Below are positions 1 through 16,880 of a stretch of 54,982 bases of DNA, one piece after another. The stretch's first letter is position 1; each line of letters starts with the position of its first letter. This DNA is from Candidatus Omnitrophota bacterium (lineage in GTDB: Bacteria; Omnitrophota; Gorgyraeia; Duberdicusellales; 4484-171). The stretch spans positions 1-54,982 of the forward strand of contig JAGOLA010000002.1 in the NCBI GenBank assembly GCA_017994375.1. Direction: 5' to 3'. Under the pieces are notes generated by a model. It was given only the letters and a program-made list of their open reading frames with translations, had not been told where the DNA came from and searched no databases. A program made the translations under genes and the position numbers.

Positions 1-3000
1 CATATTGGCCGTTTACTACTGCTCTTTGTAATTTACCCTCATCATTTGTCTCCATACGATAACCCATAACCGGATGTTTATCGAATAAATGCGGAGTAGA
101 AGCTTCTCGCCAATCAAAGTGGTTACGTGGATCTAGCCACTTCTCAATAGCTGAAATTCCCGGATCAAATACGGCTTTGGTAGCACCATAAGTAATAGCA
201 CCGGTCGAAGCAACATCTATAGCTAAAGGAGTTATAGTAGGAAGCTTTCTTAAACCATACCCTACTAAAGCACCAGTGCCAAAATAAGAAAGAGCATCCC
301 AGCCGTTATTAATATCCCCTCTTAAAGCTCCAATGCCTACCCCAGCAAGACCAGTACCAGTAGTATAGAAAGTTTTAAATTTAGCGGTGCTGGTAAATTC
401 AGAAACTTTATTTATCCAACCAGCTTCGCTAATGGAAGTACGCATTCTATGAGCAAAACTTAAACCGCCGATACCGGCTATGGCTAAACCGGCATTAGCA
501 ATATAATTTCCGGCTATATTAGCAATATCATTATCGGTAAAATTATCGACGCTCTTACCTATATAATACATTCCGCTTCCAGCACCGACCAAAGTAAGCG
601 GATGGTGGATAGCAAATTGAACTGGTCTGGTTTGTTCTAAACCTCTTATAAAAGCTGAATCGGAAATCTTTCCATAACCAGCACCAATAGCATTAAACAT
701 GGTTGATAAACCTATAGAAGAAGTAGCAAAAGTATCTAAACTATAGGCAGTGGTATAAGCTGATTGGCTAATAGCTTTAAATTGATCATCGCTGCCTAAG
801 GTTGGCATAATAAAACCAAGGCCAGTATTCCACTTCATAAAACTGGCTGCTCCTTGGTGAGCCTGGGCTGTAAAGTAACCTACGCGCTGTAAATTACTTA
901 ATGTAGAGTAAGGCATTGTACCACCCTCAAAGTAAGCTATACGAGTAGGTGAACCATTAAACATTACCTTCTCGCGAGATATGCTAATCGGAGCAACGGT
1001 TGTACTTCTTATGTTATCCCCTAGGTATTTAAATCCTGCTGTAGCACCCATTACGCCACCAACTAATCTACCCCACTGAGCTGGACCAGCCATACGGTTA
1101 GGATCATTTAACTGATTACCAAGTTGCTCTAGTTGTTTCTTAATTGAAGCTAAACTAAGAACTTCTTTAAAAGTTTCAATTGGTCTAGATAAGCCTAAGG
1201 CTGTATAGCTACCGCTGGCAGCTTGAGTAAAGGTATCTGTTGCAGATACTAGCATAGATGTTGGGAAGGCAGCTATAGGTGCGTAATCGTTCATAAATTT
1301 ATCAAACTTAACTCTTTCAGTATTACTTCTAATAGCTGAAATCTCTGGTAAATTATTATTGATACCGAACCATTTTTCAGCAATATTGCCAGCTGCCGAA
1401 ACTATATTTCGGCCGGGATTCATAAAGATACCGGTAATTCCACTGACCGGTCCAATAATTTCATGTAAAGGTTTAGATATCACACTACTGTTACCCGAAT
1501 AATTTAATTCGGTCTTAGCTAAAGCAGTAGAACCGGCTAAGAAATTTAAAGGCTGATTAAGACCAGTGATACTAATAAATCTTGTCGCTATTGGAGAATT
1601 ATTTATATTAAAAAATGGCCTAACTGGTTCAGCCACACGTTGCACTAAATCTTTGGTTCTAGTAATAAAAGTAGGAATTTTTTCTTGGGAAGCTACTACA
1701 GCAGAAGTACTTTTAGGTATTGCCCAGTTACCAACTCCGATAATACTACGAATAGCAAGTCCGCCCAAAGCACCATCAACATAATTCATGGGGCGGCTAT
1801 AACCACCATCTAAGAAATGAGGAGCGGCAATCGCGCCAATAGTAGGATAAGTTATCCAAGACCATCCTCTAGTCGGACTTAAAGCTGGTCCAATATACTT
1901 AAAAGTATTTCCAATTAATGGTATATCTCTACCGTATTGGATAAAACTTCTTGTAACTTGCCCTAAACCATTAAAAGCGCCAGTAAAAGCATAAGTAGTT
2001 CCGACATTAAATAAAGATTCGCCTAAATGCATTATTCGACCTTCAGTAGCAGCAGTACCGACATGCCCTAAAGCTAAATTAGCAGTTGCCAAACCTCTAG
2101 TAACAGGATTTTGAGGAATTGCTAAAGCACCAGCCCCAACTCTACTCCACCAACTTGTAGTTGTAGCTGCCGTATTAGCTAAACCAGTAGCACTACCAAG
2201 ATACCCAGCGATTTTTGCTCCAGCTGCTGGTAAAGCAAAAGACACACTAAGCACAGTAGATTCAGTAGGAGTTAAGTATTGTCCTGGAGTAACTAAATTT
2301 CCTCTAGCGTCATACCCGGCAGTTTGATAATACTTCAGTTCATCTGCAGCTAAACGAGTAACTCCAGCAACCGCAACTGTTGTCCGGCCTAAATTTATTC
2401 CTGTTACTTTACGAGTAGCGTATAACTCTAAAGCAACTTTACCTACTTGACCAGCTGACATTAATCCATACTCTAAACCGCTGCTCCATCTATTTCCTTC
2501 TCTCCACTCTTTTTTAGCATGTTCTTTAGAAAGACTAAAACCGATACCAAACTTCCAATCATTACCCATGAAAGCATAAGGTCTTCCCTTTTCATCTCTA
2601 ATTTCAAATTCCCAATCGCGCCAATCTGCAGAATTATTAGTATTCTTGATTCTTAAATCATCGCTAGCCCTCATTGCATTTAAAGCCCAAGCATTAGTAG
2701 TAGTTCTGTCCCAAGTAAATAATTCATTTAAATCTCCTGCAACGCTATTTGCAGCATATAACCACATGAAAGCTTCATGTGCTCCTGCTGATCTTCGCCA
2801 ACTATCACTATCAAATATAGCGCCGATAGCTGAGTCGACTCCCCACATTATGGCATGGACAGGGGTGCTTAAAGTATTACCTGCAAAATCATGTACTACC
2901 CATGATAATCCGTCGCCAACAACTCCGGCTACAGCGCCTCCAGTTTGACGTATTGGATGCCTTAGATGTTCGGGCACAGCAGCATGGAATATCGGGATAT

Positions 3001-6000
3001 CTGTTACCCGATAATCTGGAGTGGTACCAATCCAGTTATTCATATTCTGGAGGACATCTGACATAAAAGGATTACGTTGAATTTCAGGATTAGCCATTAA
3101 GCCAGCGATGGTTGTCGAGACTTTTTCTTTTTGTTCGTTATATTGAGCAGCTACACGTTTATATTCATCTCTTAATTGAGCTCTAGTCATTCCTAATTCA
3201 TTAATTGCTCTATCAGCATATTGCGGAGACATAAGTTGATTAGCAATAATATTCAAATTACGTTCCATTCTCTGCAATTGCACTTGGGTTTCAGCTACTT
3301 GTAAAACTGGAACTTTATTAGCCAGTCTTTGCAAAGCATCGACTTTTAAACCATCAGTATAAATAGCACCGGGTATACCCATAGAAGGTTGATCAGCTTT
3401 CGCAATTATCTGCTCTCTTTGTTCTAAGAATTTAACTGGGTCGTCAAAATTTAAAACTGCTTGAGCCTGATATAAAACTCTTAACTGGTTAGCAACTCTT
3501 AATTGCTCTTCACGAATGCTATCATCTCTATTATGAAGTATCCCTCGATACCAAGGCTGGCCGGCTAAATCACCATTAAGGTTTAATTCTCTAGACCAGC
3601 GTTGATTAAGATCAGCTAAACGTCTTTCTAAACCGCGTATCTCCTGCGGTAATCTTTCGGTACTATAACCCATTTCTCTTACCTTTTGAGCGTATTCGAC
3701 TCTAACTTGTGCAATTTGTTCTTGAAGTTGCCGAGGGGTCAAGACATCTTCGAATCTAATATTTTGCTGGGCAGTATTACCGATAGCATCGAATTTTATT
3801 ACATTGACTTTACTAAATTGTAAATGATAATTCGCAATATGTTCATTGTTATATTTAGGATTAGTTACCACTTTAAATACCTTATCTCCCGTAAAACCAT
3901 TGTTAGTAATTGCGTAATTTCTCAAATCCTGGGCAATGCTACCGGAGAAATTATAATTAAAACCCGAAATAAAATTAGAGGCTTTGCCGGAAAGTAAGCC
4001 GTCAGCGCCAAGAGTAATAGTAGTAAGGGCTCTTGTCGTAAAGGGGATATTCCTTGCAATTTGTTTATCAACTCCGGCCTCTTTATTCTGAGAACCTTGA
4101 TATTGAGAAGCTTGAACAAATAAGGGTTGTTTTCCTTCTGAAAGAGTAATGCTGATAGAATTACCCAGGCGCTCTAAGCCAATAACATTGCGCCATTGGC
4201 CAGGTTCGGTCATAAAGCGGGCATTATCAAATATTTGTTTTATATTGCCTTGGATATTACCTAGTTTATCCCAACGAATAGCATTGGCGAATTCACCCAC
4301 TGCTTTTTGGCCAACAGGATCTCTAAAAGTAACAGTAAAACGGTTGTTATCTAAAGGCGTTAAATAACCATTATGAGCGGTAATAAGCTGGCCAACGTTA
4401 TTAAAAATAATAGTTTCTTTATCTTGAATAGTTAAACCACCGTCAGCTAAAGACTTGCCAGCAGAAACTTGTCTAGTAAACCCTAGGTCTCCTTTAAAAC
4501 CTTGGCTGGTTATAGCATAGTTTCTTACATCCTGGGCAATGCTACCGGAGAAATTATAATTAAAACCCGAAATAAAATTAGAGGCTTTACCGGAAAGTAA
4601 GCCGTCAGCGCCAAGAGTTAAAGCTTGCATTGGACGAGCGGTAGCAAGATTATCTAAAGGTTGATAATAACCGGTTTTAACCTGATTAAAGAATTCTTCG
4701 TTAGTGGCTGCGGGAGGTTTAAGTAATTCTGATTGGATACTTTGTCTAAATAACGGCTGTTTTCCTTCTGAAAGAGTAACGCTGATAGAATTACCCATCC
4801 GCTCTAGACCAACAACATCTCGCCATTTCCCAGCTTCGGTCATAAAGCGGGCTGATTCAAATACCTTATTAATATCGCCGCTAACAGCACCTTGTTTATC
4901 CCAACGGATGGCATTAGCGAATTCACCAATGGCTTGTTGGTTAGCAGCATCTCTAAAAGCAATAGCAAATCTATTACCATCTATAGGTTGAATATAACCA
5001 GCATGAAGTTCAGTAGGTTGTCCTAAAGAATTAAAGTGAATAGTTTCATTATTAATAAAGGTCAAACCGCCACTAGCTAATAATTTAGAATTTCTATCTA
5101 CTTGAACGCTAAGAGCAGTATCGCCACTTATCTTAGAAACCACTGTTGCATTTCTAAAATCACCTGATAAAGAAGGCGAAGAACTTAAAGATGAAAATAG
5201 AAGATTAGTCTGTTGAATTCCATCGGCAAAAACAAATTCACCCTCTTTATGCAAAGTCAGAGTACGTGGGCCGATATTAATTGCGTTACCAAGAGAATCT
5301 ATATTAGAGTTGGTTTGGAATTCAGGAGCGAAAGCTCGATTTAAAACTAAAGGATTATCTCCGCTGAACTGGATAAAAGGAGTCTTACCGCTATCGGCAA
5401 TACCTTGTTTAGTGATATTAAGTTGTACTACTGGCTGATTAACTTTATCAAAAGGAGTAGCTAATCTAAAAGCACTATCAACCTTAAAAGAGTTATCTAT
5501 AAATTGTATTCCGCTATCAGTAGCTACACCCCAGAAATTGACTCCGTTTAATAGAACTCTATTCTCAACAATTTTACCAGTTACTGGATTCTGTATAAGA
5601 GATACGGAATCAGTATAGATATTATTCCAACCTGATACTACGCCCGGAGTACTTAACTTCTGAATAGCCCAACCTTCCATATTCAAAGCAACATGGCTTC
5701 CGGCTAAACTTTGTAGTTTGGAGTTATTGCCGCCAATTTGTTCCGGTCTAGCAGCAGCAATAACTTCCGAAGCAATATTCCTATTGCCATCAAAAGCTAC
5801 CGCAGCTACAAACTTATTCATATCTACAGTATTAAAACCGGTATTTGCAAAGTTATTCTGTGCACCTACGAATTGATGGTTAGCATTATGAAACATTGGT
5901 GAAAACGATAAGGCATCTTGGTTAAGCTGTTGCGGTCCGGTTATTTGAAGCGGTATAGAAGCAAAATGACTCTTATCAGTTAAGGCTGTAGAAATATAAG

Positions 6001-9000
6001 TACTGTTGGCTAATTGGGCGGTACTAAAATTGCCTCCACTGAAAGGATTGTTAATTCCGCCAACACCACCAGAAGTAACTGACTCGGAAGAAAAGATAGC
6101 TGTAGTCCCGCTATTGATTCCTATTTTAGAAAAATCAAAAGTTTGGGCATTAAAAGCTAAAGTTCTATTGTTAATTACCTGAACAACTTTTAGAGCTTGA
6201 GTTTCAGGGGTAAAGTTTTGGTTAAGTTCCCAAGGTTTTCCAAAAGTAGTACTATAGGTTAATCCCGGTAATTTTCCTGCCCCAAGATTATCTTGTTGGA
6301 TGGCTTCTAAATTAGTTTTAACTCCCAAAGGCGATAAATCTTGTAATTTAGTGGTTCTAAAGAAAAGCGGATCAGCGCCTTCTATAGCTAATGGCCCATT
6401 AACACCAATTTGCATTCCTGCACCCCAGAAAGAATTGTGTTCTCCATACATATGTATAGAGTTAGCTGGGCTAACATTTTGGCTAAACCTAGCTATTGCT
6501 CCTACTCCGAAATTATTACTGACTATGCCTTGATGTACATAATTATCCTGACTAACTACTTTAGCTAAATCTACGTTAGGTAAAACCCAAGATAATTGCC
6601 CTTCCAATCTTCCCGTATTAATATCATTAGTAGGACTTAAAGTATAATTGGCTTTCGAAAAATATAACTGGGGTATTGAAGAGGCCCCTTGATTACCACC
6701 GGCAGAAATAGGCCCCATACCAGGCAAAGCCTCCAGAGAAACGCCCTGACCTAAAATCTCTAAGGCCTGAGCACCTTGGAGAGTATGGGTAATACGGGCT
6801 TGGTCTATAATAGTGTTCTGGCCGCCGCTTTCGATTGCTCCTCTGGCACTGTGCAAACCTTGAAGAGGAGCATAAATATAACTTCCATTTTTAAGAGCAA
6901 TTAAACTGGTTTGAACAGTACCACTTACTGAATTTGGTTTTACTTCTGGACCAATATAAGGAAGTTCACCCGGCGCTAAATTGTAAGTTCCGGGTTGACC
7001 TAAAAGAATCATAGCAAGATGATTATTGGTAGGAACTGTATCTTGCCCGATAGCTCCTCCAAAGTGGAAAGTCCTATCTAAAAAGACATTTTGAGGATCT
7101 TTAACTTCGGCGCGGGAAGTCTGAACTCCTTCGTTATTTATATAGCTTTGTTGGACATAAGATATGGGGTTATTTTGAATATGATTGCGCCAAGCAACAG
7201 CTGTAGCAGCACTATCATTCCAATTGCTAAGAGTTCCGAATGATTTCTCGCTATATGAAGTAGGTAAACCGACAAAGCTATCTTTTAAATAACTCTTTTC
7301 AAAAGCAACTACAGCATCGCCTTCTTTGGCTTTACCAACTATAACTTCTTTTCCTTGCTTTTCATCCCAGACAGAAATTACGCCTACTCTAGCTAGCCAA
7401 TTCTGATTATCACTGATATATTGCGCTCTAGCTTTAGGATCTGCTATACCGCTCAAAGTTGTTTGAAAAGCAGCATAATCTTGTTGAGCTTTGCTATCTT
7501 TAAAAAACTTTTCATGCATCCAATCGTTAGTAGCAACACCAAGGGCTGTAGAGCCAAAATTAGCTCCGGGGTTTAAGACTGAAAGGCCGTCTTCAGAGCT
7601 AAACCAAGGCCTTTCTGCCCAACTTAATTCTTCGCCTCGGGCTTGTTTCGCAGCAGCCTCTCTATTATTTAAAGCACTACCGTTTATATAATCTAAGCCG
7701 GTACCAAGCACAACCCCTACCGCACCACCACTAGATTTTAAGCCCGTAGCTATTGTTCCAAATACATCTTTCCAGAGTTGGCCTTTATCATCCCAACGGC
7801 TTGAAGCTTGAGCCTCCGTAGAAGGAGCTGGGACAGCAGAAGCAGCAGTGGTTTGCGTTGTAATCGTTGGAGTAGAAGTAGAATTAGCTACGGTATTAGA
7901 AGATCTATCCATATAAGTAGTAGTGCCGGATGTAGCACTAGGATAAGCAACACCTGAAGAAGCAGCGCTTTTACCCATATTTTCAGACATATTACCAACA
8001 GCGCTATGGATTGAACGAGCAATGCCTCTGGCCTCTGTTCTATCGGTAACTAAGTGCGAAGGAAAAATACCATCTGCGGTTTCTTTTATAGCCTGGAATT
8101 TAGAGTTAGAAGAAGATTCGAATCTATTGCTCGAAGCATTCGCAGCTGTTGCCTGTGGCTGAGAAGCAGCAGGACTTGATGCTGACGGCTGATTAACATA
8201 TACTCCTGAAGGGCTACTACTAGCTGGCCTAGAAACATTACTCTCATACCAATTCTGGCTTACCGGTCCAAAAGCCCGGCCGTCATTAGTTACTCCACCA
8301 TTTTTTACATAGTTATCATAGCTACCTGGGCCAGGAGTGTTGTTTGAAAAACTCTGAGATTGCCCTGAAGCTGCTGTAACAGGAGCAGAATAATTAGTGT
8401 TACTATAATTCTTAGGTGCTGTCTGGGCCTGAGAAGCAGAGCTTACTGCTGGTGCTTGATTAACATAGATACCTGGCCCAGAAACCGTCTGAGAAACTTG
8501 GGCTGAAGCTACTGGTTGAGAATAATTATTAGTAGAAGGGCTCGGAGAGTAAGAAGACGATATATAGCCTACTGCAGTATCAGCGGCTTTAGATATTGCT
8601 CCACCGGTTGCCCTATCGACAGTGCTAACTACGGCACTAGTAGTAGGAAATACTACTGATAAAGTGGACTTCACTGCTCCCCAAGTAGAAGAGCTTTGGG
8701 AGTCAGTGTTACCGACCGAAGTCGGATACTGATTCGAAACTGCTGAAGTATTAGAAGAATAATTAGCGCCAGTATAATTCGAAGACGCTGCTGCTGGCTG
8801 AGAAGTAGGAGTTGATGCTGACGGCTGATTAACATATACCCCAGAATTAGGGTTGCTATAATAATTACTAGCTGGCCGAGAAACATTACTTTCATACCAA
8901 TTCTGGCTTACCGGTCCAAAAGCCTGACCGTCATTAGTTACTCCGCCATTTTTTACATAGTTATCATAGCTACCTGGGCCAGGAGTGTTATATTGTTGTA

Positions 9001-9508
9001 CGCTAGATCCCGCATAAGGAGTAGCAGTCGGAGTAATATTGTAGTTACTAGAATTACCGCTGCTAGTAGCTGGTGAATAAGTGTTATAGCCATAATTGTT
9101 GGCTGGCGAATAATTAGCCGAATAAGTAGTGGTCACATAGTTATAATAATTTTGATAGTTGTAATTGTTATAGCCGTAATAGTTGGAATTATACTGGTAG
9201 TCTGAACTGCTGCTATTGGAACTGGAAGAAGAAGAGGAATAATTCGAATCCGAAGATAAATCATACATCTCGGCATAAAGTTTGTTTAAAGAAAACAAAG
9301 AGCTCAAAATTCCTTTTGGCTTGGAAGGCAAAGGTGAAAAATATCCTTTTGAGGCAGAATAATAAGCCGGATTACTCGCTGAAGCTATATCCTGGTAGAC
9401 AAAACAGAAAAGCACGATAAAAGCAATTACGCGCATCCAAGGTTTAAAACTTGGACTGTGTAATTTGTTGAAAACTTTTAATTCTAAATTATCTATGTTA
9501 TCGTGCAT
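1..9508 (-). CDS. Giant secreted or surface protein. Only the N-terminal 3,169 codons are in the window; the ORF runs off at position 1 with no stop.
   Basis: The minus-strand frame starting at ATG 9508-9506 has an in-frame TAA just upstream at 9514-9512. Read by eye, it stays open to position 2. The supplied track lists only ORFs of 100 aa or less between 1 and 9500, which fits one unterminated ORF rather than fragments. The N-terminus reads MHDNIDNLELKVFNKLHSPSFKPWMRVIAFIVLFCFVYQDIASA, which looks like a signal peptide or membrane anchor. I recognised no known domain. Confidence 0.85.
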   Translation of the reverse strand, partial: MHDNIDNLELKVFNKLHSPSFKPWMRVIAFIVLFCFVYQDIASASNPAYYSASKGYFSPLPSKPKGILSSLFSLNKLYAEMYDLSSDSNYSSSSSSSNSSSSDYQYNSNYYGYNNYNYQNYYNYVTTTYSANYSPANNYGYNTYSPATSSGNSSNYNITPTATPYAGSSVQQYNTPGPGSYDNYVKNGGVTNDGQAFGPVSQNWYESNVSRPASNYYSNPNSGVYVNQPSASTPTSQPAAASSNYTGANYSSNTSAVSNQYPTSVGNTDSQSSSTWGAVKSTLSVVFPTTSAVVSTVDRATGGAISKAADTAVGYISSSYSPSPSTNNYSQPVASAQVSQTVSGPGIYVNQAPAVSSASQAQTAPKNYSNTNYSAPVTAASGQSQSFSNNTPGPGSYDNYVKNGGVTNDGRAFGPVSQNWYESNVSRPASSSPSGVYVNQPSASSPAASQPQATAANASSNRFESSSNSKFQAIKETADGIFPSHLVTDRTEARGIARSIHSAVGNMSENMGKSAASSGVAYPSATSGTTTYMDRSSNTVANSTSTPTITTQTTAASAVPAPSTEAQASSRWDDKGQLWKDVFGTIATGLKSSGGAVGVVLGTGLDYINGSALNNREAAAKQARGEELSWAERPWFSSEDGLSVLNPGANFGSTALGVATNDWMHEKFFKDSKAQQDYAAFQTTLSGIADPKARAQYISDNQNWLARVGVISVWDEKQGKEVIVGKAKEGDAVVAFEKSYLKDSFVGLPTSYSEKSFGTLSNWNDSAATAVAWRNHIQNNPISYVQQSYINNEGVQTSRAEVKDPQNVFLDRTFHFGGAIGQDTVPTNNHLAMILLGQPGTYNLAPGELPYIGPEVKPNSVSGTVQTSLIALKNGSYIYAPLQGLHSARGAIESGGQNTIIDQARITHTLQGAQALEILGQGVSLEALPGMGPISAGGNQGASSIPQLYFSKANYTLSPTNDINTGRLEGQLSWVLPNVDLAKVVSQDNYVHQGIVSNNFGVGAIARFSQNVSPANSIHMYGEHNSFWGAGMQIGVNGPLAIEGADPLFFRTTKLQDLSPLGVKTNLEAIQQDNLGAGKLPGLTYSTTFGKPWELNQNFTPETQALKVVQVINNRTLAFNAQTFDFSKIGINSGTTAIFSSESVTSGGVGGINNPFSGGNFSTAQLANSTYISTALTDKSHFASIPLQITGPQQLNQDALSFSPMFHNANHQFVGAQNNFANTGFNTVDMNKFVAAVAFDGNRNIASEVIAAARPEQIGGNNSKLQSLAGSHVALNMEGWAIQKLSTPGVVSGWNNIYTDSVSLIQNPVTGKIVENRVLLNGVNFWGVATDSGIQFIDNSFKVDSAFRLATPFDKVNQPVVQLNITKQGIADSGKTPFIQFSGDNPLVLNRAFAPEFQTNSNIDSLGNAINIGPRTLTLHKEGEFVFADGIQQTNLLFSSLSSSPSLSGDFRNATVVSKISGDTALSVQVDRNSKLLASGGLTFINNETIHFNSLGQPTELHAGYIQPIDGNRFAIAFRDAANQQAIGEFANAIRWDKQGAVSGDINKVFESARFMTEAGKWRDVVGLERMGNSISVTLSEGKQPLFRQSIQSELLKPPAATNEEFFNQVKTGYYQPLDNLATARPMQALTLGADGLLSGKASNFISGFNYNFSGSIAQDVRNYAITSQGFKGDLGFTRQVSAGKSLADGGLTIQDKETIIFNNVGQLITAHNGYLTPLDNNRFTVTFRDPVGQKAVGEFANAIRWDKLGNIQGNIKQIFDNARFMTEPGQWRNVIGLERLGNSISITLSEGKQPLFVQASQYQGSQNKEAGVDKQIARNIPFTTRALTTITLGADGLLSGKASNFISGFNYNFSGSIAQDLRNYAITNNGFTGDKVFKVVTNPKYNNEHIANYHLQFSKVNVIKFDAIGNTAQQNIRFEDVLTPRQLQEQIAQVRVEYAQKVREMGYSTERLPQEIRGLERRLADLNQRWSRELNLNGDLAGQPWYRGILHNRDDSIREEQLRVANQLRVLYQAQAVLNFDDPVKFLEQREQIIAKADQPSMGIPGAIYTDGLKVDALQRLANKVPVLQVAETQVQLQRMERNLNIIANQLMSPQYADRAINELGMTRAQLRDEYKRVAAQYNEQKEKVSTTIAGLMANPEIQRNPFMSDVLQNMNNWIGTTPDYRVTDIPIFHAAVPEHLRHPIRQTGGAVAGVVGDGLSWVVHDFAGNTLSTPVHAIMWGVDSAIGAIFDSDSWRRSAGAHEAFMWLYAANSVAGDLNELFTWDRTTTNAWALNAMRASDDLRIKNTNNSADWRDWEFEIRDEKGRPYAFMGNDWKFGIGFSLSKEHAKKEWREGNRWSSGLEYGLMSAGQVGKVALELYATRKVTGINLGRTTVAVAGVTRLAADELKYYQTAGYDARGNLVTPGQYLTPTESTVLSVSFALPAAGAKIAGYLGSATGLANTAATTTSWWSRVGAGALAIPQNPVTRGLATANLALGHVGTAATEGRIMHLGESLFNVGTTYAFTGAFNGLGQVTRSFIQYGRDIPLIGNTFKYIGPALSPTRGWSWITYPTIGAIAAPHFLDGGYSRPMNYVDGALGGLAIRSIIGVGNWAIPKSTSAVVASQEKIPTFITRTKDLVQRVAEPVRPFFNINNSPIATRFISITGLNQPLNFLAGSTALAKTELNYSGNSSVISKPLHEIIGPVSGITGIFMNPGRNIVSAAGNIAEKWFGINNNLPEISAIRSNTERVKFDKFMNDYAPIAAFPTSMLVSATDTFTQAASGSYTALGLSRPIETFKEVLSLASIKKQLEQLGNQLNDPNRMAGPAQWGRLVGGVMGATAGFKYLGDNIRSTTVAPISISREKVMFNGSPTRIAYFEGGTMPYSTLSNLQRVGYFTAQAHQGAASFMKWNTGLGFIMPTLGSDDQFKAISQSAYTTAYSLDTFATSSIGLSTMFNAIGAGYGKISDSAFIRGLEQTRPVQFAIHHPLTLVGAGSGMYYIGKSVDNFTDNDIANIAGNYIANAGLAIAGIGGLSFAHRMRTSISEAGWINKVSEFTSTAKFKTFYTTGTGLAGVGIGALRGDINNGWDALSYFGTGALVGYGLRKLPTITPLAIDVASTGAITYGATKAVFDPGISAIEKWLDPRNHFDWREASTPHLFDKHPVMGYRMETNDEGKLQRAVVNGQY
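3890..5077 (-). repeat. In-frame tandem duplication inside the giant ORF: two units of about 200 aa.
   Basis: 88-bp cores at 3928-4015 and 4531-4618 differ at one base, giving a period of 603 bp. Both units encode ...GGLT..ETI.FN..GQ....GY..P.D.NRF...FRD...Q.A.GEFANAIRWDK.G...G.I...F..ARFMTE.G.WR.V.GLER.GNSIS.TLSEGKQPLF ... LTLGADGLLSGKASNFISGFNYNFSGSIAQD.RNYAIT. The plus-strand shadow ORFs 4149-4367 and 4704-4991 mirror the same repeat. Confidence 0.85.
8158..8990 (-). repeat. Two-copy repeat of about 185 bp inside the low-complexity N-terminal part of the giant ORF, with a period of about 640-648 bp.
   Basis: Segments 8158-8342 and 8797-8990 are near-identical. Both encode NTPGPGSYDNYVKNGGVTNDG[QR]AFGPVSQNWYESNVSRPAS...SGVYVNQPSAS. 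Confidence 0.8.
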
Positions 9509-9590
9509 AAATTAAAATAAAATTATAAATATAAAAATGGCCCCTCTTCTTTTCTCCCCAAATTGTGCGTTGGCTTTTTCTATTCTCATA

Positions 9591-9635
9591 AAATAAAAAC
9601 CGGATTGCCTTCTCTTTTGAGATTCGGCAACCCGG
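9591..9635 (-). terminator. Intrinsic terminator forming the expression platform of the riboswitch at 9591-9735.
   Basis: On the RNA, CCGGGUUGCC (9635-9626) pairs with GGCAAUCCGG (9609-9600) over 10 bp including one G-U. A UUUUUAUUU tract follows (9599-9591). The 5' arm of the stem is also the 3' strand of the aptamer. Confidence 0.7.
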
Positions 9636-9735
9636 CTATCCGTTTAGATAAAACTAAGTTGTAGTAGAGCTTCCTAAATTAGGACCCGTGGCTTTGCGCC
9701 CTCCGCTTACGCTGGAGTTTGCCTTTATCGACCCC
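9591..9735 (-). promoter_or_regulatory. c-di-GMP-I (GEMM-I) riboswitch in the 5' leader of the giant ORF.
   Basis: The minus-strand RNA reads AAAGGCAAACUCCAGCGUAAGCGGAGGGCGCAAAGCCACGGGUCCUAA...CGGAUAGCCGGGUUGCCGA. This has the GEMM-I hallmarks: GGCAAAC, a hairpin capped by a GNRA loop (GUAA), the GCGCAAAGCC core, CCUAA, and the 3' AGCCGGGUUGCCGA segment (compare the Vibrio cholerae Vc2 aptamer). A terminator follows. Confidence 0.85.
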
Positions 9736-9760: not shown

Positions 9761-9789
9761 AATATAACATAATATAATATATAAGTCAA
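9761..9789 (-). promoter_or_regulatory. Sigma70-like promoter for the riboswitch and giant ORF transcript.
   Basis: On the minus strand, TTGACT (9789-9784) is followed by a 17-nt spacer and TATATT (9766-9761). This lies about 25 nt upstream of the aptamer. Confidence 0.55.
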
Positions 9790-9979: not shown

Positions 9980-10843
9980 TTACATACCTACTCCACTAAA
10001 CAAGTCTCCCTTTATAAATTTAATTAGAATCGGCCCGGCAACAATAATAAGAATTACTGGTAAGATGCAAAAGATAAGCGGAATAAGCATCTTAAGCGGT
10101 GCTTTCATAGCTTGGCGTTCTCCTCTATGAAAACGTCGCATCCGAGTATCCTCAGAAAGAATCTTAAAAGCCTCTTCCACTGGAGTTCCCATGCGATCAG
10201 CCTGAATTAAGGTCCTTACAAAAGAGGTAACATCTGGTATCTCTAATCTTTTAGACATATCTCTTAAAGCTTCGGTGCGGGATTTTCCGATATTTATCTC
10301 TTTTAAAACTACTGAGAGTTCTTCAATTAAAGGATTAAACCTAACTTTATCAATAACCCATCTTACCGCTGACATAAAATCTAACCCTGCTCCCACACAC
10401 AAACCTAATAAATCTACTGTCTCTGGCAATATCCTTACTATAGCATATTTTCTTCTATTGATAGCAGACTTCATCATAATACCGGGCAAGATAAGTCCAA
10501 AAATAGCAGCTGATATCAACCATATCGGCTTCTCTAAGCCAAAGACATATAGTAAAAGCGGAAAAACAATAGCGCATATCTCCCGCATTCCAAGAAATTC
10601 GGCCGGGGTTAATTTCCACCGAGATAATGTTAGTTTACTGCGTAAAGCATGTTCCAACTTAAGGATTTTTAATATTACCTTATTTAGAGGAGTAAAAACT
10701 TTTAATAAAGGCATAAGCAGAGGATTTTTATCTTCTTTGACTTTTTCTTTAAAAACCGAAATAGTATCCGGCTCTTTAGGAACTAAACCAACAAAGATAA
10801 AAATGAAGGCTGCAATCAAAAATAAATATAGAAGAATAATCAT
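9980..10843 (-). CDS. tadC: TadC-like pilus platform protein (T2SS-F/GspF-type domain).
   Basis: 287 aa, polytopic. The T2SSF-like core reads ...LPETVDLLGLCVGAGLDFMSAVRWV...RTEALRDMSKRLEIPDVTSFVRTLIQADRMGTPVEEAF... It overlaps the upstream tadB-like gene by 4 nt. Confidence 0.8.
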   Translation of the reverse strand: MIILLYLFLIAAFIFIFVGLVPKEPDTISVFKEKVKEDKNPLLMPLLKVFTPLNKVILKILKLEHALRSKLTLSRWKLTPAEFLGMREICAIVFPLLLYVFGLEKPIWLISAAIFGLILPGIMMKSAINRRKYAIVRILPETVDLLGLCVGAGLDFMSAVRWVIDKVRFNPLIEELSVVLKEINIGKSRTEALRDMSKRLEIPDVTSFVRTLIQADRMGTPVEEAFKILSEDTRMRRFHRGERQAMKAPLKMLIPLIFCILPVILIIVAGPILIKFIKGDLFSGVGM

Positions 10844-11682
10844 ATCTTGACTCTCCCAAATAAAATTATTAAGCCAATACCTACGGTCTGAAGAATTAAA
10901 GCTATTAAAAGCAATAATCTTCCCAATTCATCCTGCCACATAATATCGAAGTGAGCCGGGTCCATTTTACGAACGATAAAAAAGAATACTGGGCCGATAA
11001 GAGAAATAATAATGGCTTGTAGCCGAGTTTGTAAAGTCAAAGTGGCTACCAACTCTTTTAACTTAAGCCGGTCTCTGATAGTTTCTACTAAACGGGAAAA
11101 TACTTTAGTTAAATCTCCTCCGGTTTCTCGAGCCACCATTATAGCTGAAGTAACTAAGGTTACTTCTTCTGAGCCCATCCTTTTATCCAATCTTAGTAAA
11201 GCTTCTTCTAAAGTTACTCCCACCTTTATTTCTCTGCTTACTAACGAAATCTCTTGGCTTAAAGGAGCGCTGGTTTCTTCTACCACTACATCAAAAGCTT
11301 GTATTAAGGTTAACCCTCCTTTTAAACAGCTATTCATAATCATAAGGCCGTCTACTAACTGGTTAATGAACCTTTTCTTTCTTAGGTTCTCCATAAATTT
11401 TACTAATAGTAAGGGACAAAGTACTCCTACAATCAAAAATATAATTACCACCAATACCTTTCGGGTAAAGATATAAGATAAAGCACCTAACACCAAGGGC
11501 AATCCAATATAGAGAAGAATAAGAGTTTTTTTCTGGACAAAAATGAACATCTCTTCGAATTGAGAAGCAGTTCGCATAGCTTTTTTTTGCTGGCTTTCTT
11601 CCCATTTTTGAAGTAGAAAACCTATACCGTAATAAGAAATTACTACTAAGGAAAATAAAAGAAGTATGTAGGCTAGGATCAT
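10840..11682 (-). CDS. tadB: TadB-like pilus platform protein (T2SS-F/GspF-type domain).
   Basis: 280 aa. The core reads ...MNSCLKGGLTLIQAFDVVVEETSAPLSQEI...LEEALLRLDKRMGSEEVTLVTSAIMVARETGGDLTKVFSRL..., flanked by TM segments. Confidence 0.8.
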   Translation of the reverse strand: MILAYILLLFSLVVISYYGIGFLLQKWEESQQKKAMRTASQFEEMFIFVQKKTLILLYIGLPLVLGALSYIFTRKVLVVIIFLIVGVLCPLLLVKFMENLRKKRFINQLVDGLMIMNSCLKGGLTLIQAFDVVVEETSAPLSQEISLVSREIKVGVTLEEALLRLDKRMGSEEVTLVTSAIMVARETGGDLTKVFSRLVETIRDRLKLKELVATLTLQTRLQAIIISLIGPVFFFIVRKMDPAHFDIMWQDELGRLLLLIALILQTVGIGLIILFGRVKI

Positions 11683-11692: not shown

Positions 11693-11860
11693 CTAGTTGG
11701 GGTCAAACTGTTCTTCTAAGCCAAAAGTATCGGCTGCTTTTTTATAACTTCCTTGAAGGCGCCTTTTGATATAACCGGACATCGCTAAGAAAACAGCAAT
11801 AATCACCACTATTAAAATAGCATAAACAAGGATTACTTGCGACTGTTTACTTGTTCGCAT
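11693..11860 (-). CDS. Small Flp-like pilin paralogue of 55 aa, not in the ORF track, with Val in place of the conserved Glu5.
   Basis: ATG at 11860 and TAG at 11693-11695. The translation is MRTSKQSQVILVYAILIVVIIAVFLAMSGYIKRRLQGSYKKAADTFGLEEQFDPN. It aligns with the ...KAQSTLEYALLITVVIAVLLSMQAYIKRGMQGKFKD... paralogues at 15772-16113 and elsewhere. It overlaps the end of the upstream gene by 14 nt. Confidence 0.55.
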   Translation of the reverse strand: MRTSKQSQVILVYAILIVVIIAVFLAMSGYIKRRLQGSYKKAADTFGLEEQFDPN

Positions 11861-12665
11861 GATAATAAATTCCGATTATAGTGTAAGTATCTTTTAATAA
11901 CTCTTTCTCCGCTTCGGACTTAATATCCTTCAAGTAATAAGAGCTAATAAAAATATAATAAGCCTGATTATTATTTTTAAAAACTAAATTTTTAGCATTG
12001 GCGAACGGGGTCTCTGCTATATTCTTACTCTGCTCACCAGAAATTTCCGGGCATACTGGACAAGCCGAACTGATATCTACAGTGTCAAAATTACTTTTTT
12101 GTTCCGATAGTTTCCAGCCTAAAGAAGGCATTCTCCTAAGATAAAAATCTTCTACCTGCTTCGGGTTTTCTTTGGTTTTATAGGCAAAATAATGTATTCC
12201 TTTAGTGAAAGAATTATAGGATATTAATTCAGCGCTGGAAGGGTAAGGTGGCTTAAAGCTTGGTTTTTTATCCGGAGTAAAACATCCTTCTGGAGGGCAA
12301 GCTTTATTATCATTGCCTTTGGTTAAATCTCCGGTAATAACTGAATAAGAAGTTTCTTTCTTATTTAGCGAAGGCATAAAATTTAAGCTTAACATCATCC
12401 CTTTCTTAAGGTAAGAGTTAGGGGAAGCTTTATCTATTGGTTGCCAACCTTGTTTTGATAATCTCTCTTTATAAAATTGGCTAATTTGGCTTTTAGAAGA
12501 GTTGGAAGTATAGTGATATATTACGGATTCTCTATCTACTTCGGCAAATTTTTTAATCTCTTTTTTAATCAATTTGGAGTTAGGATAATAAGGTAAATTA
12601 GCGACTTCCGCCAAGGCTTTAAAAGATACTAAACAAAAAATAACTAAAATAATTTTTTTAACCAT
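11847..12665 (-). CDS. Secreted protein of unknown function with an internal two-fold duplication.
   Basis: I moved the start from the track's 12782 to ATG 12665, giving MVKKIILVIFCLVSFKALAEV, a typical signal peptide. This also removes the overlap with the upstream gene. The halves resemble each other: YYPNSKLI...YHYTSNSSKSQISQFYKERLSKQGWQ against PYPSSAELI...FAYKTKENPKQVEDFYLRRMPSLGWK. Confidence 0.6.
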   Translation of the reverse strand: MVKKIILVIFCLVSFKALAEVANLPYYPNSKLIKKEIKKFAEVDRESVIYHYTSNSSKSQISQFYKERLSKQGWQPIDKASPNSYLKKGMMLSLNFMPSLNKKETSYSVITGDLTKGNDNKACPPEGCFTPDKKPSFKPPYPSSAELISYNSFTKGIHYFAYKTKENPKQVEDFYLRRMPSLGWKLSEQKSNFDTVDISSACPVCPEISGEQSKNIAETPFANAKNLVFKNNNQAYYIFISSYYLKDIKSEAEKELLKDTYTIIGIYYHANK

Positions 12666-12684
12666 TGTCTTTATTCTTATTACT

Positions 12685-14010
12685 TTACTTCCAAAAGTCA
12701 ACTTCAATAATCGCAGCATCGTGTTCCCAAATAGGCTCGCAACTATAACCGTCGTGACGGGAACAAATTTGTCCTCTATCATTATAATTAAAAGTAGCTC
12801 GAGTGGAACTTTTTATATTAGGATATTGGGTAAGCCAAAGCTCCGAAGAACGCTGGCCGACATTACCGGCATGAGACTGAACAGTCTTGGCTTCCACCTC
12901 TCTATCATGCACTATATCGTCAATCCAGGCAATAATAAGCTGTGGTTCATTATTGGCAGTATAAAGAGTGGTTGTGCTATCTTTGTCGATATCTAGGCCT
13001 ATCCAGGCTCTAGTACTCATATCATAAGCATTATCTATAGAACTTAAGGCTCTTTGAAGGTGCATTATTGCCATCTGACAATTCTGCTGCCAACAAACAC
13101 AGCAAGGCCACCAACCAGCTAAGCAGCATGGAACGCAACTACAAGCCGCGGCTAGATACCCTTGAGCGTGGCGTAAATTATCAATAGCATCTTCGGTAAA
13201 AAATATCACTCGCTCTAAAGTATCGGTTTCTTCCGGATAAGTCATATTAGTGTGACGAATCTTATACTCCCAGATAGGATCAATGCAAATTTGCCCCCAA
13301 ACTTCATGTCGCCGGCCGGAGTAATCATTCCAGATAAAATTCTCAAACTTGCAATTTTCTACTGTCGCAGTAGTGAAACTATCTACCTTACTATAAAGAT
13401 AATGCTTATCGCTATCTCTAATCTTTACTGCTATACCGCTGTTAAGAAAAAGAAACTTATATCCGGCAGCCAAAGCAGTATAGTATAAATCAAACTGGTT
13501 AGGTTGATCTCTATGGACGATATTTCTTACCCGGCGGTAAAAATCCTGCTGGTTAAAGAAAAAACTGGGCACTATCTGCCATTGAATTTGGCGGGTTTCG
13601 GCCCAAAAAAAACGCAATAGTCTATCGGCCTCAATAGCCCAATAAATAGCTTCGCAAGGGTTCGGACAAGCTAAATTAAGGGCACCTACGGTTTGGTGGC
13701 GGGCTAAAAATAAAATATTCCAAGAGTGCTGAAAATGCCTAAAAGCTTCCCAGTTGAAACGCCGGTAATTTATCTCAAATATGCGGTTAGCAAAAGCTAC
13801 GTAATTGAAAGCATAGGCTAAGGGCGAAGCAGCAGCTAAAGCTCCGCCGTCAGTAGCATTGCCACTGTAGGTCTTAGTTCCGGCGATCTTTCCGATATTT
13901 ACGCTGATTAAAGCTGCAATGAGGATAACTAGTATTAAAGCAAAGAAAAAAGGGGCAAGCTGTCCTTTATGAAATGAAGACTTATTAAAATAACTATTAT
14001 TTTTAAACAT
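12685..14010 (-). CDS. TadG-like pilus-associated protein with a pseudopilin-like hydrophobic N-terminus and a Cys/Trp-rich cluster.
   Basis: About 441 aa. The N-terminus ...KGQLAPFFFALILVILIAALISVNIGKIAG resembles the TadG/TadE-type N-terminal helix. The motif AACSCVPCCLAGWWPCCVCWQQNC is encoded at about 13075-13155. The track start at 14013 is GTG; the ATG lies at 14010. Confidence 0.5.
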   Translation of the reverse strand: MFKNNSYFNKSSFHKGQLAPFFFALILVILIAALISVNIGKIAGTKTYSGNATDGGALAAASPLAYAFNYVAFANRIFEINYRRFNWEAFRHFQHSWNILFLARHQTVGALNLACPNPCEAIYWAIEADRLLRFFWAETRQIQWQIVPSFFFNQQDFYRRVRNIVHRDQPNQFDLYYTALAAGYKFLFLNSGIAVKIRDSDKHYLYSKVDSFTTATVENCKFENFIWNDYSGRRHEVWGQICIDPIWEYKIRHTNMTYPEETDTLERVIFFTEDAIDNLRHAQGYLAAACSCVPCCLAGWWPCCVCWQQNCQMAIMHLQRALSSIDNAYDMSTRAWIGLDIDKDSTTTLYTANNEPQLIIAWIDDIVHDREVEAKTVQSHAGNVGQRSSELWLTQYPNIKSSTRATFNYNDRGQICSRHDGYSCEPIWEHDAAIIEVDFWK

Positions 14011-14032
14011 CACCCCTTTACCTTCAGGTTAA

Positions 14033-14924: not shown

Positions 14925-14942
14925 TTTTTTACTAACCTTTGC

Positions 14943-16876: not shown

Positions 16877-16880
16877 CTTC

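What the first reader, a model, noticed from the sequence alone, without database searches (positions are those of the whole stretch)
1..9508. Giant ORF of more than 3,169 codons, missing from the ORF track and still open at the window edge, directly downstream of the Tad platform genes
The first 9.5 kb looks empty in the supplied track, which shows only shadow ORFs of 100 aa or less. Yet the minus-strand frame beginning at ATG 9508 has no stop down to position 2. The track apparently dropped it because the stop lies outside the window.

The product has several distinct regions:
- a signal or anchor peptide (MRVIAFIVLFCFVYQDIASA)
- about 550 aa of S/N/Y/T/P/Q-rich low complexity
- a long region with no family I can name
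- a tandem duplication of two units of about 200 aa
- a charged, coiled-coil-like stretch (...RQLQEQIAQVRVEYAQKVREMGY...LERRLADLNQRW...)
- more than 900 aa rich in Gly/Ala/Thr

I see no recognisable adhesin, enzyme or toxin motif. Its own promoter, its c-di-GMP riboswitch and its position right after tadC suggest it works together with the pilus. It could be an adhesin, a contact-dependent effector or a cell-cell interaction protein.
Basis: partly seen in the sequence, partly recalled or inferred. Interest (0 to 1): 0.85.

Follow-up and report, generated by a model that had tools for sequence, protein, structure and literature searches.

The report
Riboswitch-controlled giant surface protein, Omnitrophota
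This is the real but truncated front part of a very long cell-surface protein gene of an uncultured Omnitrophota bacterium, a kind of gene already known to sit next to pilus genes in that phylum; what is new is that it and the pilus genes each lie behind a c-di-GMP "on" riboswitch.

Summary
The minus-strand frame from ATG 9508 to base 2 is open for 3,169 codons (chance about 1e-92), and the contig ends inside the gene. The only database self-match is a partial hypothetical protein from a Candidatus Omnitrophica MAG.

Long and giant surface-protein genes directly downstream of a Tad/T2SS-like locus are already described for this phylum, and the window carries that locus: PPIase, RcpC, secretin, ATPases, about ten Flp-type pilins, TadG-like, TadB and TadC. 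I therefore call it a new member of a known kind.

New details:
- A c-di-GMP-I aptamer (9622-9732) overlaps an intrinsic terminator, which is the geometry of an ON switch. A second copy heads the pilin/tad operon. The giant-gene copy is found in all six closer related genomes.
- A conserved extended signal peptide is the only part shared with those six relatives.
- The first ~1,200 residues are unalignable to any relative. Residues 1,220-3,169 are collinear with a sparse family of 1,700 to more than 5,600 aa Omnitrophota proteins, which continue about 1,600-1,900 residues past the point where the window ends.
- A ~210-aa all-beta repeat domain models confidently (pLDDT 87) and has no structural neighbour in the two libraries searched.

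The likely role, c-di-GMP-triggered attachment to a host or prey cell together with the pilus, is inferred and not shown.

The parts
2..9508 (-). Open reading frame of 3,169 codons, 3'-truncated by the contig end. It is the N-terminal roughly two-thirds of a very long Omnitrophota surface protein.
   Evidence: No stop codon. Chance about 1e-92. Identical to the NCBI partial protein KBB01_00450, labelled Candidatus Omnitrophica.
9377..9508 (-). Extended signal peptide (aa 1-44): a conserved 24-aa n-region, an 11-residue h-region (VIAFIVLFCFV), then YQD-IASA|S.
   Evidence: Conserved in 12/12 relatives, with an h-region of exactly 11 uncharged residues followed by small-x-small. It is the only part shared with the TadC-closest loci.
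7709..9256 (-). S/N/Y/T/P-rich low-complexity region (aa ~85-600), with an internal duplication (aa 141-314 vs 348-505).
   Evidence: Composition. Segment BLAST: 45-59% identity, E down to 4e-26. Only L006 shares the first ~250 aa.
5852..7708 (-). Region with no detectable relative (aa ~601-1219).
   Evidence: No hit in the word-index search, in the relatives or in any profile library. The single-sequence AF2 model, which covered aa 600-1450, was uninformative (pLDDT 31). The exhaustive HMMER search did not cover this region.
5162..5851 (-). Start of the conserved body (aa ~1220-1449), shared with P0026 and P0029.
   Evidence: phmmer: giant 1229-1686 vs P0026 (7e-27) and giant 1220-1669 vs P0029 (5.5e-20).
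3869..5161 (-). Two tandem copies of a ~210-aa all-beta domain (aa 1450-1671 and 1660-1880).
   Evidence: Self-similarity 60%, E 1e-67. The domain occurs 1-4 times in relatives (alignment A3). AF2 model: pLDDT 87.3, pTM 0.79. No structural neighbour in PDB or BFVD.
2903..3739 (-). Charged R/Q/L/E-rich, coiled-coil-like stretch (aa ~1924-2202).
   Evidence: 30% charged residues. Homologous to P0022 (4e-34), P0028 and P0034. No coiled-coil predictor was run.
2..2923 (-). Conserved Gly/Ala/Thr-rich module with weakly hydrophobic segments (aa ~2196-3169). It ends in ...WLDPRNHFDWREASTPHLFDKHPV... at the contig edge.
   Evidence: phmmer: P0030 1e-111, P0023 1e-101, P0024 3e-79. Alignment A2: 34-42% identity. 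Hydropathy peaks of only 1.0-1.4. Relatives continue 600-1,900 aa beyond the aligned end.
9622..9732 (-). c-di-GMP-I riboswitch aptamer in the 5' leader of the giant gene.
   Evidence: Rfam RF03167, 62.8 bits, E 1.6e-12. The orthologous aptamers in six relatives score as RF01051.
9590..9636 (-). Intrinsic terminator (CCGGGUUGCCG...GGCAAUCCGG plus UUUUUAUUUU). Its 5' arm is the 3' strand of the aptamer, forming the expression platform of an ON switch.
   Evidence: MFE fold, z = -4.1. Same design in six relatives. The 12-bp consensus stem is present in 11/11 platforms, and 4 pairs show compensatory changes.
9761..9789 (-). Promoter-like site: TTGACT, 17 nt, TATATT, with a TG extension, about 30 nt upstream of the aptamer.
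   Evidence: Consensus scan, 10/12 matches. A consensus match only.
9980..11682 (-). tadC (9980-10843) and tadB (10840-11682), the pilus platform genes.
   Evidence: Pfam T2SSF, 1.6e-17 and 1e-19.
11847..14013 (-). TadG/TadE-like protein (12685-14013) and a 311-aa protein of unknown family (11847-12782).
   Evidence: Pfam Tad (PF13400), 1.8e-05.
14286..17354 (-). Array of about ten Flp-type pilin-like genes with ...KAQSTxEY... class-III-type leaders.
   Evidence: ORF translations. These match the 'small genes with class III signal peptides' described.
17355..17505 (-). Second c-di-GMP-I riboswitch (aptamer 17394-17505) with the same overlapping terminator (17355-17408). It directly precedes the first pilin ATG.
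   Evidence: Rfam RF01051, 46.1 bits. Sequence read directly. Included in the consensus fold.
25831..32520 (-). Remainder of the Tad/T2SS-like machinery: T2SSE ATPase (25831-26892), TadZ-like/TadA ATPase fusion (26898-29066), secretin with a TonB_C domain (29070-30743), RcpC (30715-31551) and a Rotamase_2 PPIase (31564-32520).
   Evidence: Pfam hits.

Best explanation
The feature is the first 3,169 codons of a very long cell-envelope or surface protein gene of an Omnitrophota bacterium. By homology the full product is about 4,800-5,700 aa. It belongs to the class of long and giant genes that lie just downstream of the Tad/T2SS-like pilus-secretion locus in that phylum.

Shown:
- The gene is intact up to the contig end.
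- It lies about 230 nt downstream of a promoter-like site (a consensus match only).
- Its leader RNA contains a c-di-GMP-I aptamer whose 3' strand is also the 5' arm of an intrinsic terminator.
- A second copy of the same device heads the Flp-pilin/tadG/tadB/tadC operon.
- The giant-gene device recurs in all six closer related genomes.

Inferred regulation: at low c-di-GMP the terminator forms and transcription stops. At high c-di-GMP the folded aptamer sequesters the terminator arm, and both the pilus genes and the giant gene are read through.

Inferred product: the protein is exported by Sec through a cleavable signal peptide that has an unusually long, conserved n-region. Its lineage-specific first ~1,200 residues (Ser/Asn/Tyr-rich low complexity plus a region with no relatives) form the exposed, fast-evolving end. 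The conserved distal modules (two all-beta ~210-aa domains, a coiled-coil-like stalk, a Gly/Ala-rich weakly hydrophobic module, and about 1,600-1,900 further residues lost beyond the contig end) form the shared scaffold, or the part associated with the cell's own envelope.

Inferred function: together with the Tad pilus it mediates c-di-GMP-triggered attachment to a host or prey cell.
For: Intact ORF far beyond chance.

Omnitrophota origin.

The upstream locus matches the published description item by item: secretin, T2SSE, T2SSF, RcpC, Rotamase_2 PPIase and small class-III-signal genes (compared).

In relatives, leader-bearing ORFs of 441 to more than 3,096 aa lie downstream of tadC. Most are cut by contig or locus ends.

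Riboswitch evidence:
- Rfam hits above the gathering score in the window.
- A hit immediately upstream of the leader ORF in L005, L006, L007, L012, L014 and L018, plus a hit ahead of the tad genes in L012 and L014.
- A terminator that overlaps the aptamer, conserved with compensatory changes in 11/11 platforms.
- The same logic was shown experimentally for Bc2-cap (PMC4933901) and for the C. difficile pilA1 riboswitch (PMC6366702).

The leader has an 11-residue h-region and a small-x-small site in 12/12 sequences.

Mosaic conservation: only the leader is shared with the TadC-closest loci, while aa 1220-3169 are collinear with 26 large proteins.

Relatives extend 1,619-1,806 aa past the homologue of the window's last residues (P0029, P0032, P0037).

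Published proteomics reported more peptides of the V. archaeovorus giant protein in attached cells than in unattached cells.
Against: No adhesin, lectin or enzyme domain was identified in the 3,169 residues, so the adhesion role rests on context and analogy.

No transcript, peptide or ligand-binding data exist for this locus.

Signal-peptide cleavage is a rule-of-thumb reading, because no dedicated predictor was available.

The C-terminal module has only weakly hydrophobic segments, so its membrane association is uncertain.

The more distant group of loci (L023, L027, L028, L029, L058) has leader-bearing giant ORFs but no detectable riboswitch. The regulatory link is therefore clade-specific.

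The full length is extrapolated from relatives, nearly all of which are themselves annotated as partial.
Confidence: 0.7

Rival explanations
1. The product is a secreted, contact-dependent effector. It would be released through the adjacent secretin and act on the prey or host envelope, by pore formation or cell-wall degradation, rather than serving as an adhesin.
For: The published hypothesis for Omnitrophota giant proteins is prey cell-wall digestion. Relatives of this protein carry LysM and M24 peptidase modules and C39 peptidase domains. The Gly/Ala-rich weakly hydrophobic module could insert into a target membrane. The secretin gene is in the same locus.
Against: No hydrolase, toxin or peptidoglycan-binding domain lies within the 3,169 residues present here. 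The catalytic modules seen in relatives lie in parts not shared with, or beyond, the window sequence. Secretion of a ~5,000-aa substrate through a Tad-type secretin has no precedent that I know of (own knowledge).
Confidence: 0.2
2. The product is a structural envelope or 'coat' protein of the cell's own surface. Its neighbourhood with the pilus genes would reflect shared regulation by c-di-GMP rather than shared function.
For: [quoted passage not shown] Most of the body is repetitive, low-complexity or scaffold-like, with no binding domain identified.
Against: Synteny of a leader-bearing giant ORF with tadC holds across many species-level genomes. In the closer clade both units carry the same switch. 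The extreme divergence of the N-terminal 1,200 residues is more typical of a surface that interacts with a partner than of a housekeeping coat. That last point is inference.
Confidence: 0.12
3. The ORF is a decaying or artefactual reading frame, such as an assembly chimera or a pseudogene, with no functional product.
For: The contig ends inside it. Some relatives show frame breaks in the homologous gene (L012, L014, L058).
Against: 3,169 codons without a stop has a chance probability of about 1e-92. The regulatory leader and signal peptide are conserved. aa 1220-3169 are collinear with independent proteins from other assemblies, right up to the last residues.
Confidence: 0.02

Closest known systems
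Omnitrophota giant proteins (Archaeovorin and Dockerin types) next to T2SS/Tad-like loci. Sources: West-Roberts et al. 2023, bioRxiv 10.1101/2023.11.21.568195; Seymour et al. 2023, PMC10066038; Nielsen & Lui 2026, bioRxiv 10.64898/2026.06.07.730766.
   Same: - Same phylum.
- Same upstream locus: secretin, T2SSE, T2SSF, RcpC, Rotamase_2 PPIase and small class-III-signal genes.
- N-terminal signal peptide followed by a long stretch with no recognisable domain.
- Poor conservation between genomes.
- ~200-aa beta repeat units.
- Contigs that break inside the gene.
- A protein-level link to c-di-GMP was already noted for those giants (downstream PilZ genes, GGDEF domains).
   Different: - Probably about 5,000 aa rather than more than 30,000 aa, extrapolated from relatives.
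- No C39 peptidase after the signal peptide; a Ser/Asn/Tyr low-complexity region sits there instead.
- No SecA-DEAD, glycosyl hydrolase, dockerin or other Pfam domain in the part available.
- A c-di-GMP riboswitch in the 5' leader, which none of the three papers mentions (0 occurrences).
Bc2 c-di-GMP-I riboswitch upstream of the collagen adhesion protein gene cap in Bacillus thuringiensis (Tang et al. 2016, PMC4933901).
   Same: A class I aptamer in the 5' UTR of a large surface-protein gene. A terminator/anti-terminator expression platform that acts as an ON switch, so high c-di-GMP de-represses the gene.
   Different: Different phylum and an unrelated protein. Here a second copy of the switch controls the pilus operon next door, and the ON behaviour is inferred from structure, not measured.
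Clostridioides difficile Cdi-2-4 riboswitch upstream of pilA1, the type IV pilus operon (reviewed in PMC6366702).
   Same: c-di-GMP binding allows read-through into the pilin and downstream pilus genes. Without ligand a terminator forms. The outcome is adherence at high c-di-GMP.
   Different: That riboswitch is class II and the pilus is type IVa. Here the riboswitch is class I and the pilus is Tad/Flp type (IVc).
Extended signal peptide region (ESPR) of very large autotransporter and two-partner-secretion proteins (own knowledge; Pfam PF13018).
   Same: A conserved N-terminal extension ahead of an otherwise ordinary Sec signal peptide, found on exceptionally large exported proteins.
   Different: No sequence similarity: no Pfam hit. 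There are no autotransporter or TPS domains. This is an analogy only.

Membership tests
Omnitrophota long/giant proteins adjacent to a Tad/T2SS-like locus | Encoded in an Omnitrophota genome | tested here: met
   The self-hit is annotated Candidatus Omnitrophica. The closest TadC loci are mostly Omnitrophota MAGs. The module-sharing relatives are Omnitrophota MAG proteins.
Omnitrophota long/giant proteins adjacent to a Tad/T2SS-like locus | Preceded by a multi-subunit secretion/pilus locus (gspD/E/F homologues, rcpC, Rotamase_2 PPIase, small genes with class III signal peptides) | tested here: met
   Secretin, two T2SSE, two T2SSF, RcpC, Rotamase_2 and a TadG-like protein. About ten Flp-type pilin genes. 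This matches the description read.
Omnitrophota long/giant proteins adjacent to a Tad/T2SS-like locus | N-terminal signal peptide followed by a region without identifiable domains | tested here: met
   Leader analysis. Pfam and NCBIfam empty.
Omnitrophota long/giant proteins adjacent to a Tad/T2SS-like locus | C39 (or S8) peptidase domain near the N-terminus (frequent, not universal) | tested here: not met
   No C39 hit in the window ORF. It is present in relatives P0029, P0020 and P0032.
Omnitrophota long/giant proteins adjacent to a Tad/T2SS-like locus | Extreme length (over 20 kb in Seymour et al.; over 90 kb in West-Roberts et al.) | tested here: inconclusive
   At least 9.5 kb is present and the gene is truncated. 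Relatives reach 4,921, 4,936 and 5,667 aa, which suggests about 15 kb, below both thresholds. The catalogue in the 2026 preprint covers 'long proteins' more broadly.
Omnitrophota long/giant proteins adjacent to a Tad/T2SS-like locus | Numerous predicted transmembrane helices | tested here: inconclusive
   Apart from the leader, there are only weakly hydrophobic Gly/Ala-rich segments (Kyte-Doolittle 1.0-1.4). No TMHMM or DeepTMHMM was available.
Omnitrophota long/giant proteins adjacent to a Tad/T2SS-like locus | Divergent SecA-DEAD helicase domain | not testable with these tools
   If present, it would lie beyond the contig end. Pfam did not detect it in relatives P0020, P0022, P0029 or P0032, and the PDB sequence search did not detect it in a P0022 segment.
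Omnitrophota long/giant proteins adjacent to a Tad/T2SS-like locus | PilZ genes immediately downstream | not testable with these tools
   The contig ends inside the gene. Attempts to extend it failed.
c-di-GMP-I riboswitch (GEMM-I, Rfam clan CL00126) | Aptamer sequence and structure match the covariance model above the curated threshold | tested here: met
   62.8 bits against a gathering score of 59 (RF03167) at 9622-9732. 46.1 bits against 35 (RF01051) at 17394-17505. The orthologues score 46.8-60.6 bits.
c-di-GMP-I riboswitch (GEMM-I, Rfam clan CL00126) | Expression platform coupled to the aptamer | tested here: met
   A terminator hairpin shares its 5' arm with the aptamer's 3' strand. The stem is conserved in 11/11 platforms, with 4 covarying pairs and a U-tract.
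c-di-GMP-I riboswitch (GEMM-I, Rfam clan CL00126) | Binds c-di-GMP | not testable with these tools
   This needs in-line probing or ITC.
c-di-GMP-I-GGC variant (RF03167) | G in place of the canonical A in the ...GACGC[A/G]AAGCC... core, as read from the two Rfam consensus lines | tested here: not met
   In the alignment the window has CGCAAAGCC, with A where the RF03167 consensus has G. Orthologous aptamers score best as RF01051. I therefore treat it as a canonical class I aptamer, even though RF03167 scored highest.
Tad/Flp (type IVc) pilus locus | TadB and TadC platform, TadA ATPase with a TadZ-like partner, RcpA secretin, RcpC, Flp pilins, TadE/F/G pseudopilins | tested here: met
   A TadV prepilin peptidase was not looked for specifically.
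Known giant adhesin/toxin families (RTX/T1SS adhesins, autotransporters, two-partner secretion, Rhs/YD, phage tape measure) | Their signature repeats or domains detectable by profile search | tested here: not met
   No Pfam, NCBIfam, PHROGs or PADLOC hit. No PDB sequence or fold match for the conserved modules.

The most novel reading that the evidence does not exclude
In one Omnitrophota clade, a pair of c-di-GMP ON riboswitches forms a single RNA-level attack-or-attach switch. One copy sits on the Flp-pilin/tad operon and one on the adjacent giant surface-protein gene, so the two are turned on together. The giant protein would carry a previously unseen all-beta ~210-aa fold and a dedicated extended signal peptide that marks this class of oversized exported proteins. 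If so, riboswitch sequence alone would identify the attachment regulon of these uncultured, host-dependent nanobacteria. It would also give a ligand-controlled handle on giant-protein expression.
Probability: 0.4. Interest if true: 0.65.

Novelty: new member of a known kind. Interest (0 to 1): 0.45.

Why it matters
Giant surface proteins and Tad pili are the two genomic hallmarks used to argue that Omnitrophota live as predators or episymbionts. How they are deployed is unknown, and the organisms are almost entirely uncultured.

A riboswitch is a regulatory element that can be read from sequence and tested in vitro without a culture. Finding the same c-di-GMP ON switch on both units gives a concrete hypothesis that can be tested biochemically: high c-di-GMP turns on pilus and giant protein together, for attachment.

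The analysis also supplies three practical markers for finding and sorting these fragmented genes in metagenomes:
- the conserved leader;
- the ~210-aa beta domain;
- the Gly/Ala-rich module.

It also shows that the word-indexed protein search misses this family, while exhaustive HMMER finds it.

Tried and rejected
Profile libraries. Pfam, NCBIfam, PHROGs and PADLOC scans of the whole ORF gave nothing.

Word-indexed homology searches:
- aa 600-3169 returned only the protein itself.
- The leader profile returned only 72-211 aa fragments on mostly short contigs.

Structure. Single-sequence AlphaFold of aa 600-1450 failed (pLDDT 31).

Extending the gene:
- The window is the whole contig.
- The degenerate-pattern scan of JGI metagenome contigs with the C-terminal module found nothing.
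- An exact 32-mer from the left edge also found nothing.

Tracing a full-length relative. L058, reached through P0010, was a distant group-2 locus with frameshifts, no riboswitch and no body similarity.

SecA-like ATPase in relatives. Pfam and a PDB sequence search were negative.

Weak similarities I discarded:
- The similarity of the repeat domain to the C-terminal domain of alpha-L-fucosidase (E 0.21) is not significant, and Foldseek did not support it.
- The L012 coiled-coil match (found with --max on a small database) did not survive a larger search space.

Ideas considered and rejected:
- Pseudogene or chimera.
- Phage tape-measure protein.
- RTX, autotransporter or Rhs families.
- The RF03167 'GGC variant' label for the aptamer.
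Full report
**1. Observation**

Translating the minus strand from 9508 to 2 gives 3,169 codons without a stop. The ORF is missing from the ORF listing only because it runs off the window. The other five frames of the same 9.5 kb carry 159-387 stops each. With the local base composition, the chance of no stop is about 1e-92, and 200 shuffles never exceeded 143 open codons. An in-frame stop lies two codons upstream of ATG 9508.

The word-indexed protein search returned only the protein itself: 'MAG: hypothetical protein KBB01_00450, partial [Candidatus Omnitrophica bacterium]', on a contig of 54,982 bp. The window is therefore the entire contig, and the gene is cut by the assembly.

**2. Context**

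Upstream on the same strand lie, in order:
- tadC and tadB (T2SSF domains) and a TadG/E-like gene.
- An array of about ten Flp-type pilin-like genes with ...KAQSTxEY... leaders.
- Beyond an inserted arsenic-resistance-like block: a T2SSE ATPase, a TadZ-like/TadA ATPase fusion, a secretin with a TonB_C domain, RcpC and a Rotamase_2 PPIase.

[quoted passage not shown] Seymour et al. likewise report Tad complexes and giant ORFs as hallmarks of the phylum. A 2026 preprint finds secretion or pilus genes flanking 13 of 14 giants.

**3. Relatives by synteny**

A TadC-seeded scan of one genome per species returned 57 loci. The closest (60-67% TadC identity) are mostly Omnitrophota MAGs. Downstream of tadC they carry long ORFs, most of them cut by the contig or locus end:
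- L006, at least 1,489 aa;
- L012, 2,640 aa followed by a frame change;
- L028, at least 3,096 aa;
- L029, at least 2,515 aa.

Only the first ~80 residues of these ORFs resemble the window ORF; L006 shares ~250. Nothing beyond aa 250 is found in any six-frame translation of the 58 loci.

The shared part is a leader...RFKPWMRVIAFxVLFCFVYQDxxSA... (alignment A1). In all 12 leaders examined the uncharged core is exactly 11 residues and is followed by a small-x-small motif. By the usual (-3,-1) rule and h-region length (established knowledge; no predictor available), this indicates a cleavable Sec signal peptide with an unusually long, conserved n-region rather than a membrane anchor.

**4. Relatives by sequence**

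An exhaustive HMMER search of 1.84 billion representatives with aa 1450-2649 found 26 relatives. The larger ones are 1,197-4,936 aa. All ten whose provenance I looked up are single-copy proteins; nine are annotated partial MAG proteins, eight of them Omnitrophota and one labelled Bacteroidales, and one unnamed JGI protein (P0029, 4,921 aa) sits on an 82-kb contig. A cluster mate reaches 5,667 aa.

Local phmmer shows collinear modules from aa ~1220 to 3160:
- a region shared with P0026 and P0029;
- the ~210-aa repeat, present 1-4 times per relative;
- the charged stretch, shared with P0022, P0028 and P0034;
- a Gly/Ala-rich module at 34-42% identity with P0023, P0024, P0030 and P0037 (alignment A2).

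The window's very last residues (...WLDPRNHFDWREASTPHLFDKHPV...) align to position ~3115 of 4,921 in P0029, ~3171 of 4,936 in P0032 and ~2100 of 3,719 in P0037. About 1,600-1,900 residues are therefore probably missing.

Relatives P0020 and P0029 start with the same type of leader followed by a C39 peptidase domain. P0032 also has LysM and an M24 peptidase, and P0029 has TPR repeats. C39 next to the signal peptide is what West-Roberts et al. describe. The window ORF has a Ser/Asn/Tyr low-complexity region in that place and no C39.

**5. Structure**

An AlphaFold model of repeat unit 1, built with a 16-sequence alignment (A3), is confident: pLDDT 87.3, pTM 0.79. It is all-beta, with a poorly modelled helical linker.

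Foldseek finds no neighbour in the PDB (best E 0.18, TM at most 0.16) or in BFVD (best E 0.15). Sequence profiles of A2 and A3 find nothing significant in the PDB. AlphaFold DB was not available, so 'no known fold' is provisional.

West-Roberts et al. also describe ~200-aa beta repeat units linked by helices in a Dockerin-type giant. Whether that is the same domain could not be tested.

The C-terminal module has only weakly hydrophobic segments.

**6. Regulation**

Rfam places a c-di-GMP class I aptamer at 9622-9732 and a second at 17394-17505, both on the gene strand. The first scored marginally best with the 'GGC variant' model. At the position where the two Rfam consensus lines differ, however, it has the canonical A (alignment), and its orthologues score as RF01051.

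The ligand-free MFE fold of 9575-9740 forms a hairpin, CCGGGUUGCCG...GGCAAUCCGG, followed by UUUUUAUUUU. The hairpin's 5' arm is the 3' strand of the aptamer (z = -4.1). The second riboswitch has the same device, ending directly at the first pilin ATG.

The six closer relatives each have a class I aptamer immediately upstream of the leader-bearing ORF. L012 and L014 also have one ahead of the tad genes. All share the overlapping terminator. A consensus fold of 11 platforms gives a 12-bp stem present in every sequence, 4 pairs with compensatory double changes, and a U-tract.

This is the architecture of an ON switch. It has been shown experimentally for Bc2-cap in B. thuringiensis and for the pilA1 riboswitch of C. 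difficile. The more distant loci (L023, L027, L028, L029, L058) have no detectable riboswitch. None of the three Omnitrophota papers mentions a riboswitch, although West-Roberts et al. note PilZ genes downstream and GGDEF domains within giants.

**7. Mechanism**

Shown:
- an intact, truncated gene;
- a conserved leader;
- two aptamers with overlapping terminators;
- synteny with a complete Tad-type locus;
- a mosaic conservation pattern.

Inferred:
- High c-di-GMP permits read-through into both the pilin/tad operon and the giant gene.
- The product is exported by Sec.
- Its lineage-specific N-terminal ~1,200 residues are the exposed, rapidly diversifying end, and the conserved distal modules are scaffold or envelope-associated.
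- Pilus and protein act together in attachment to a host or prey cell.

The rivals are a secreted cell-wall-active effector, a structural coat protein, or an artefact. The data do not exclude the first two; the last is effectively excluded.

**8. Verdict**

It is a new member of a known kind, not a new kind. The added value is:
- the paired c-di-GMP ON riboswitches;
- the conserved extended signal peptide;
- the module map, with an estimate of what is missing;
- a confidently modelled beta domain without a structural neighbour in the libraries available.

I score interest as moderate.

Noticed in passing
window 19334-25729 (-): A block of arsenic-resistance-like genes splits the tad locus between the ATPase genes and the pilin operon. 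It comprises a DUF134 regulator, an ArsP permease, a SAM methyltransferase, DsbD_2, an SBF/ACR3-like transporter, and an ABC ATPase with its permease.
   Followed up: no
window 29070-30743 (-): The RcpA-type secretin carries a C-terminal TonB_C domain. The 2026 preprint also mentions TonB C-terminal domains in flanks of giant genes.
   Followed up: no
window 14286-17354 (-): About ten tandem Flp-type pilin-like genes with ...KAQSTxEY... leaders. The first ATG (17354) directly abuts the U-tract of the second riboswitch's terminator, so the hairpin may also mask the ribosome-binding region.
   Followed up: partly
window 17667-19112 (-): A 481-aa ORF with no Pfam hit lies immediately upstream of the pilin riboswitch, at the junction with the arsenic block.
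   Followed up: no
L012 11559-20851; L014 15496-20843: In two relatives the leader-bearing giant ORF changes reading frame, with roughly 80-100 nt of overlap between the two frames. This could be a sequencing error, decay or a programmed frameshift.
   Followed up: no
L017 11136-16411; L018 11669-18280; L021 11033-16294; L003 12781-20439: Three to five genes for 200-1,400 aa secreted proteins lie downstream of tadC (in L018, between tadC and the giant gene). Several have Arg-rich, low-complexity mature N-termini. In L017 a riboswitch hit of the GGC-type model precedes the first of them.
   Followed up: no
L058 3257-13580: On a 66-kb JGI contig the group-2 leader and C39-like region are broken by frameshifts into 107-aa and 94-aa genes, ahead of a gene called at 4,901 aa. 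There is no riboswitch and no similarity to the window ORF body.
   Followed up: yes
window 47001-49000, inside ORF 46204-49383 (-): Strongly negative AT skew (-0.29 to -0.32) within a 1,059-aa ORF at the far end of the window.
   Followed up: no
protein P0025 (relative): A 4,425-aa relative that shares the repeat domain is labelled 'Bacteroidales bacterium' in NCBI, probably through mis-binning.
   Followed up: no
method note (vs 41): The word-indexed protein search missed relatives that the exhaustive HMMER search found at E 1e-131 to 1e-20. 'Orphan' calls from that tool on long, compositionally biased proteins are unreliable.
   Followed up: yes
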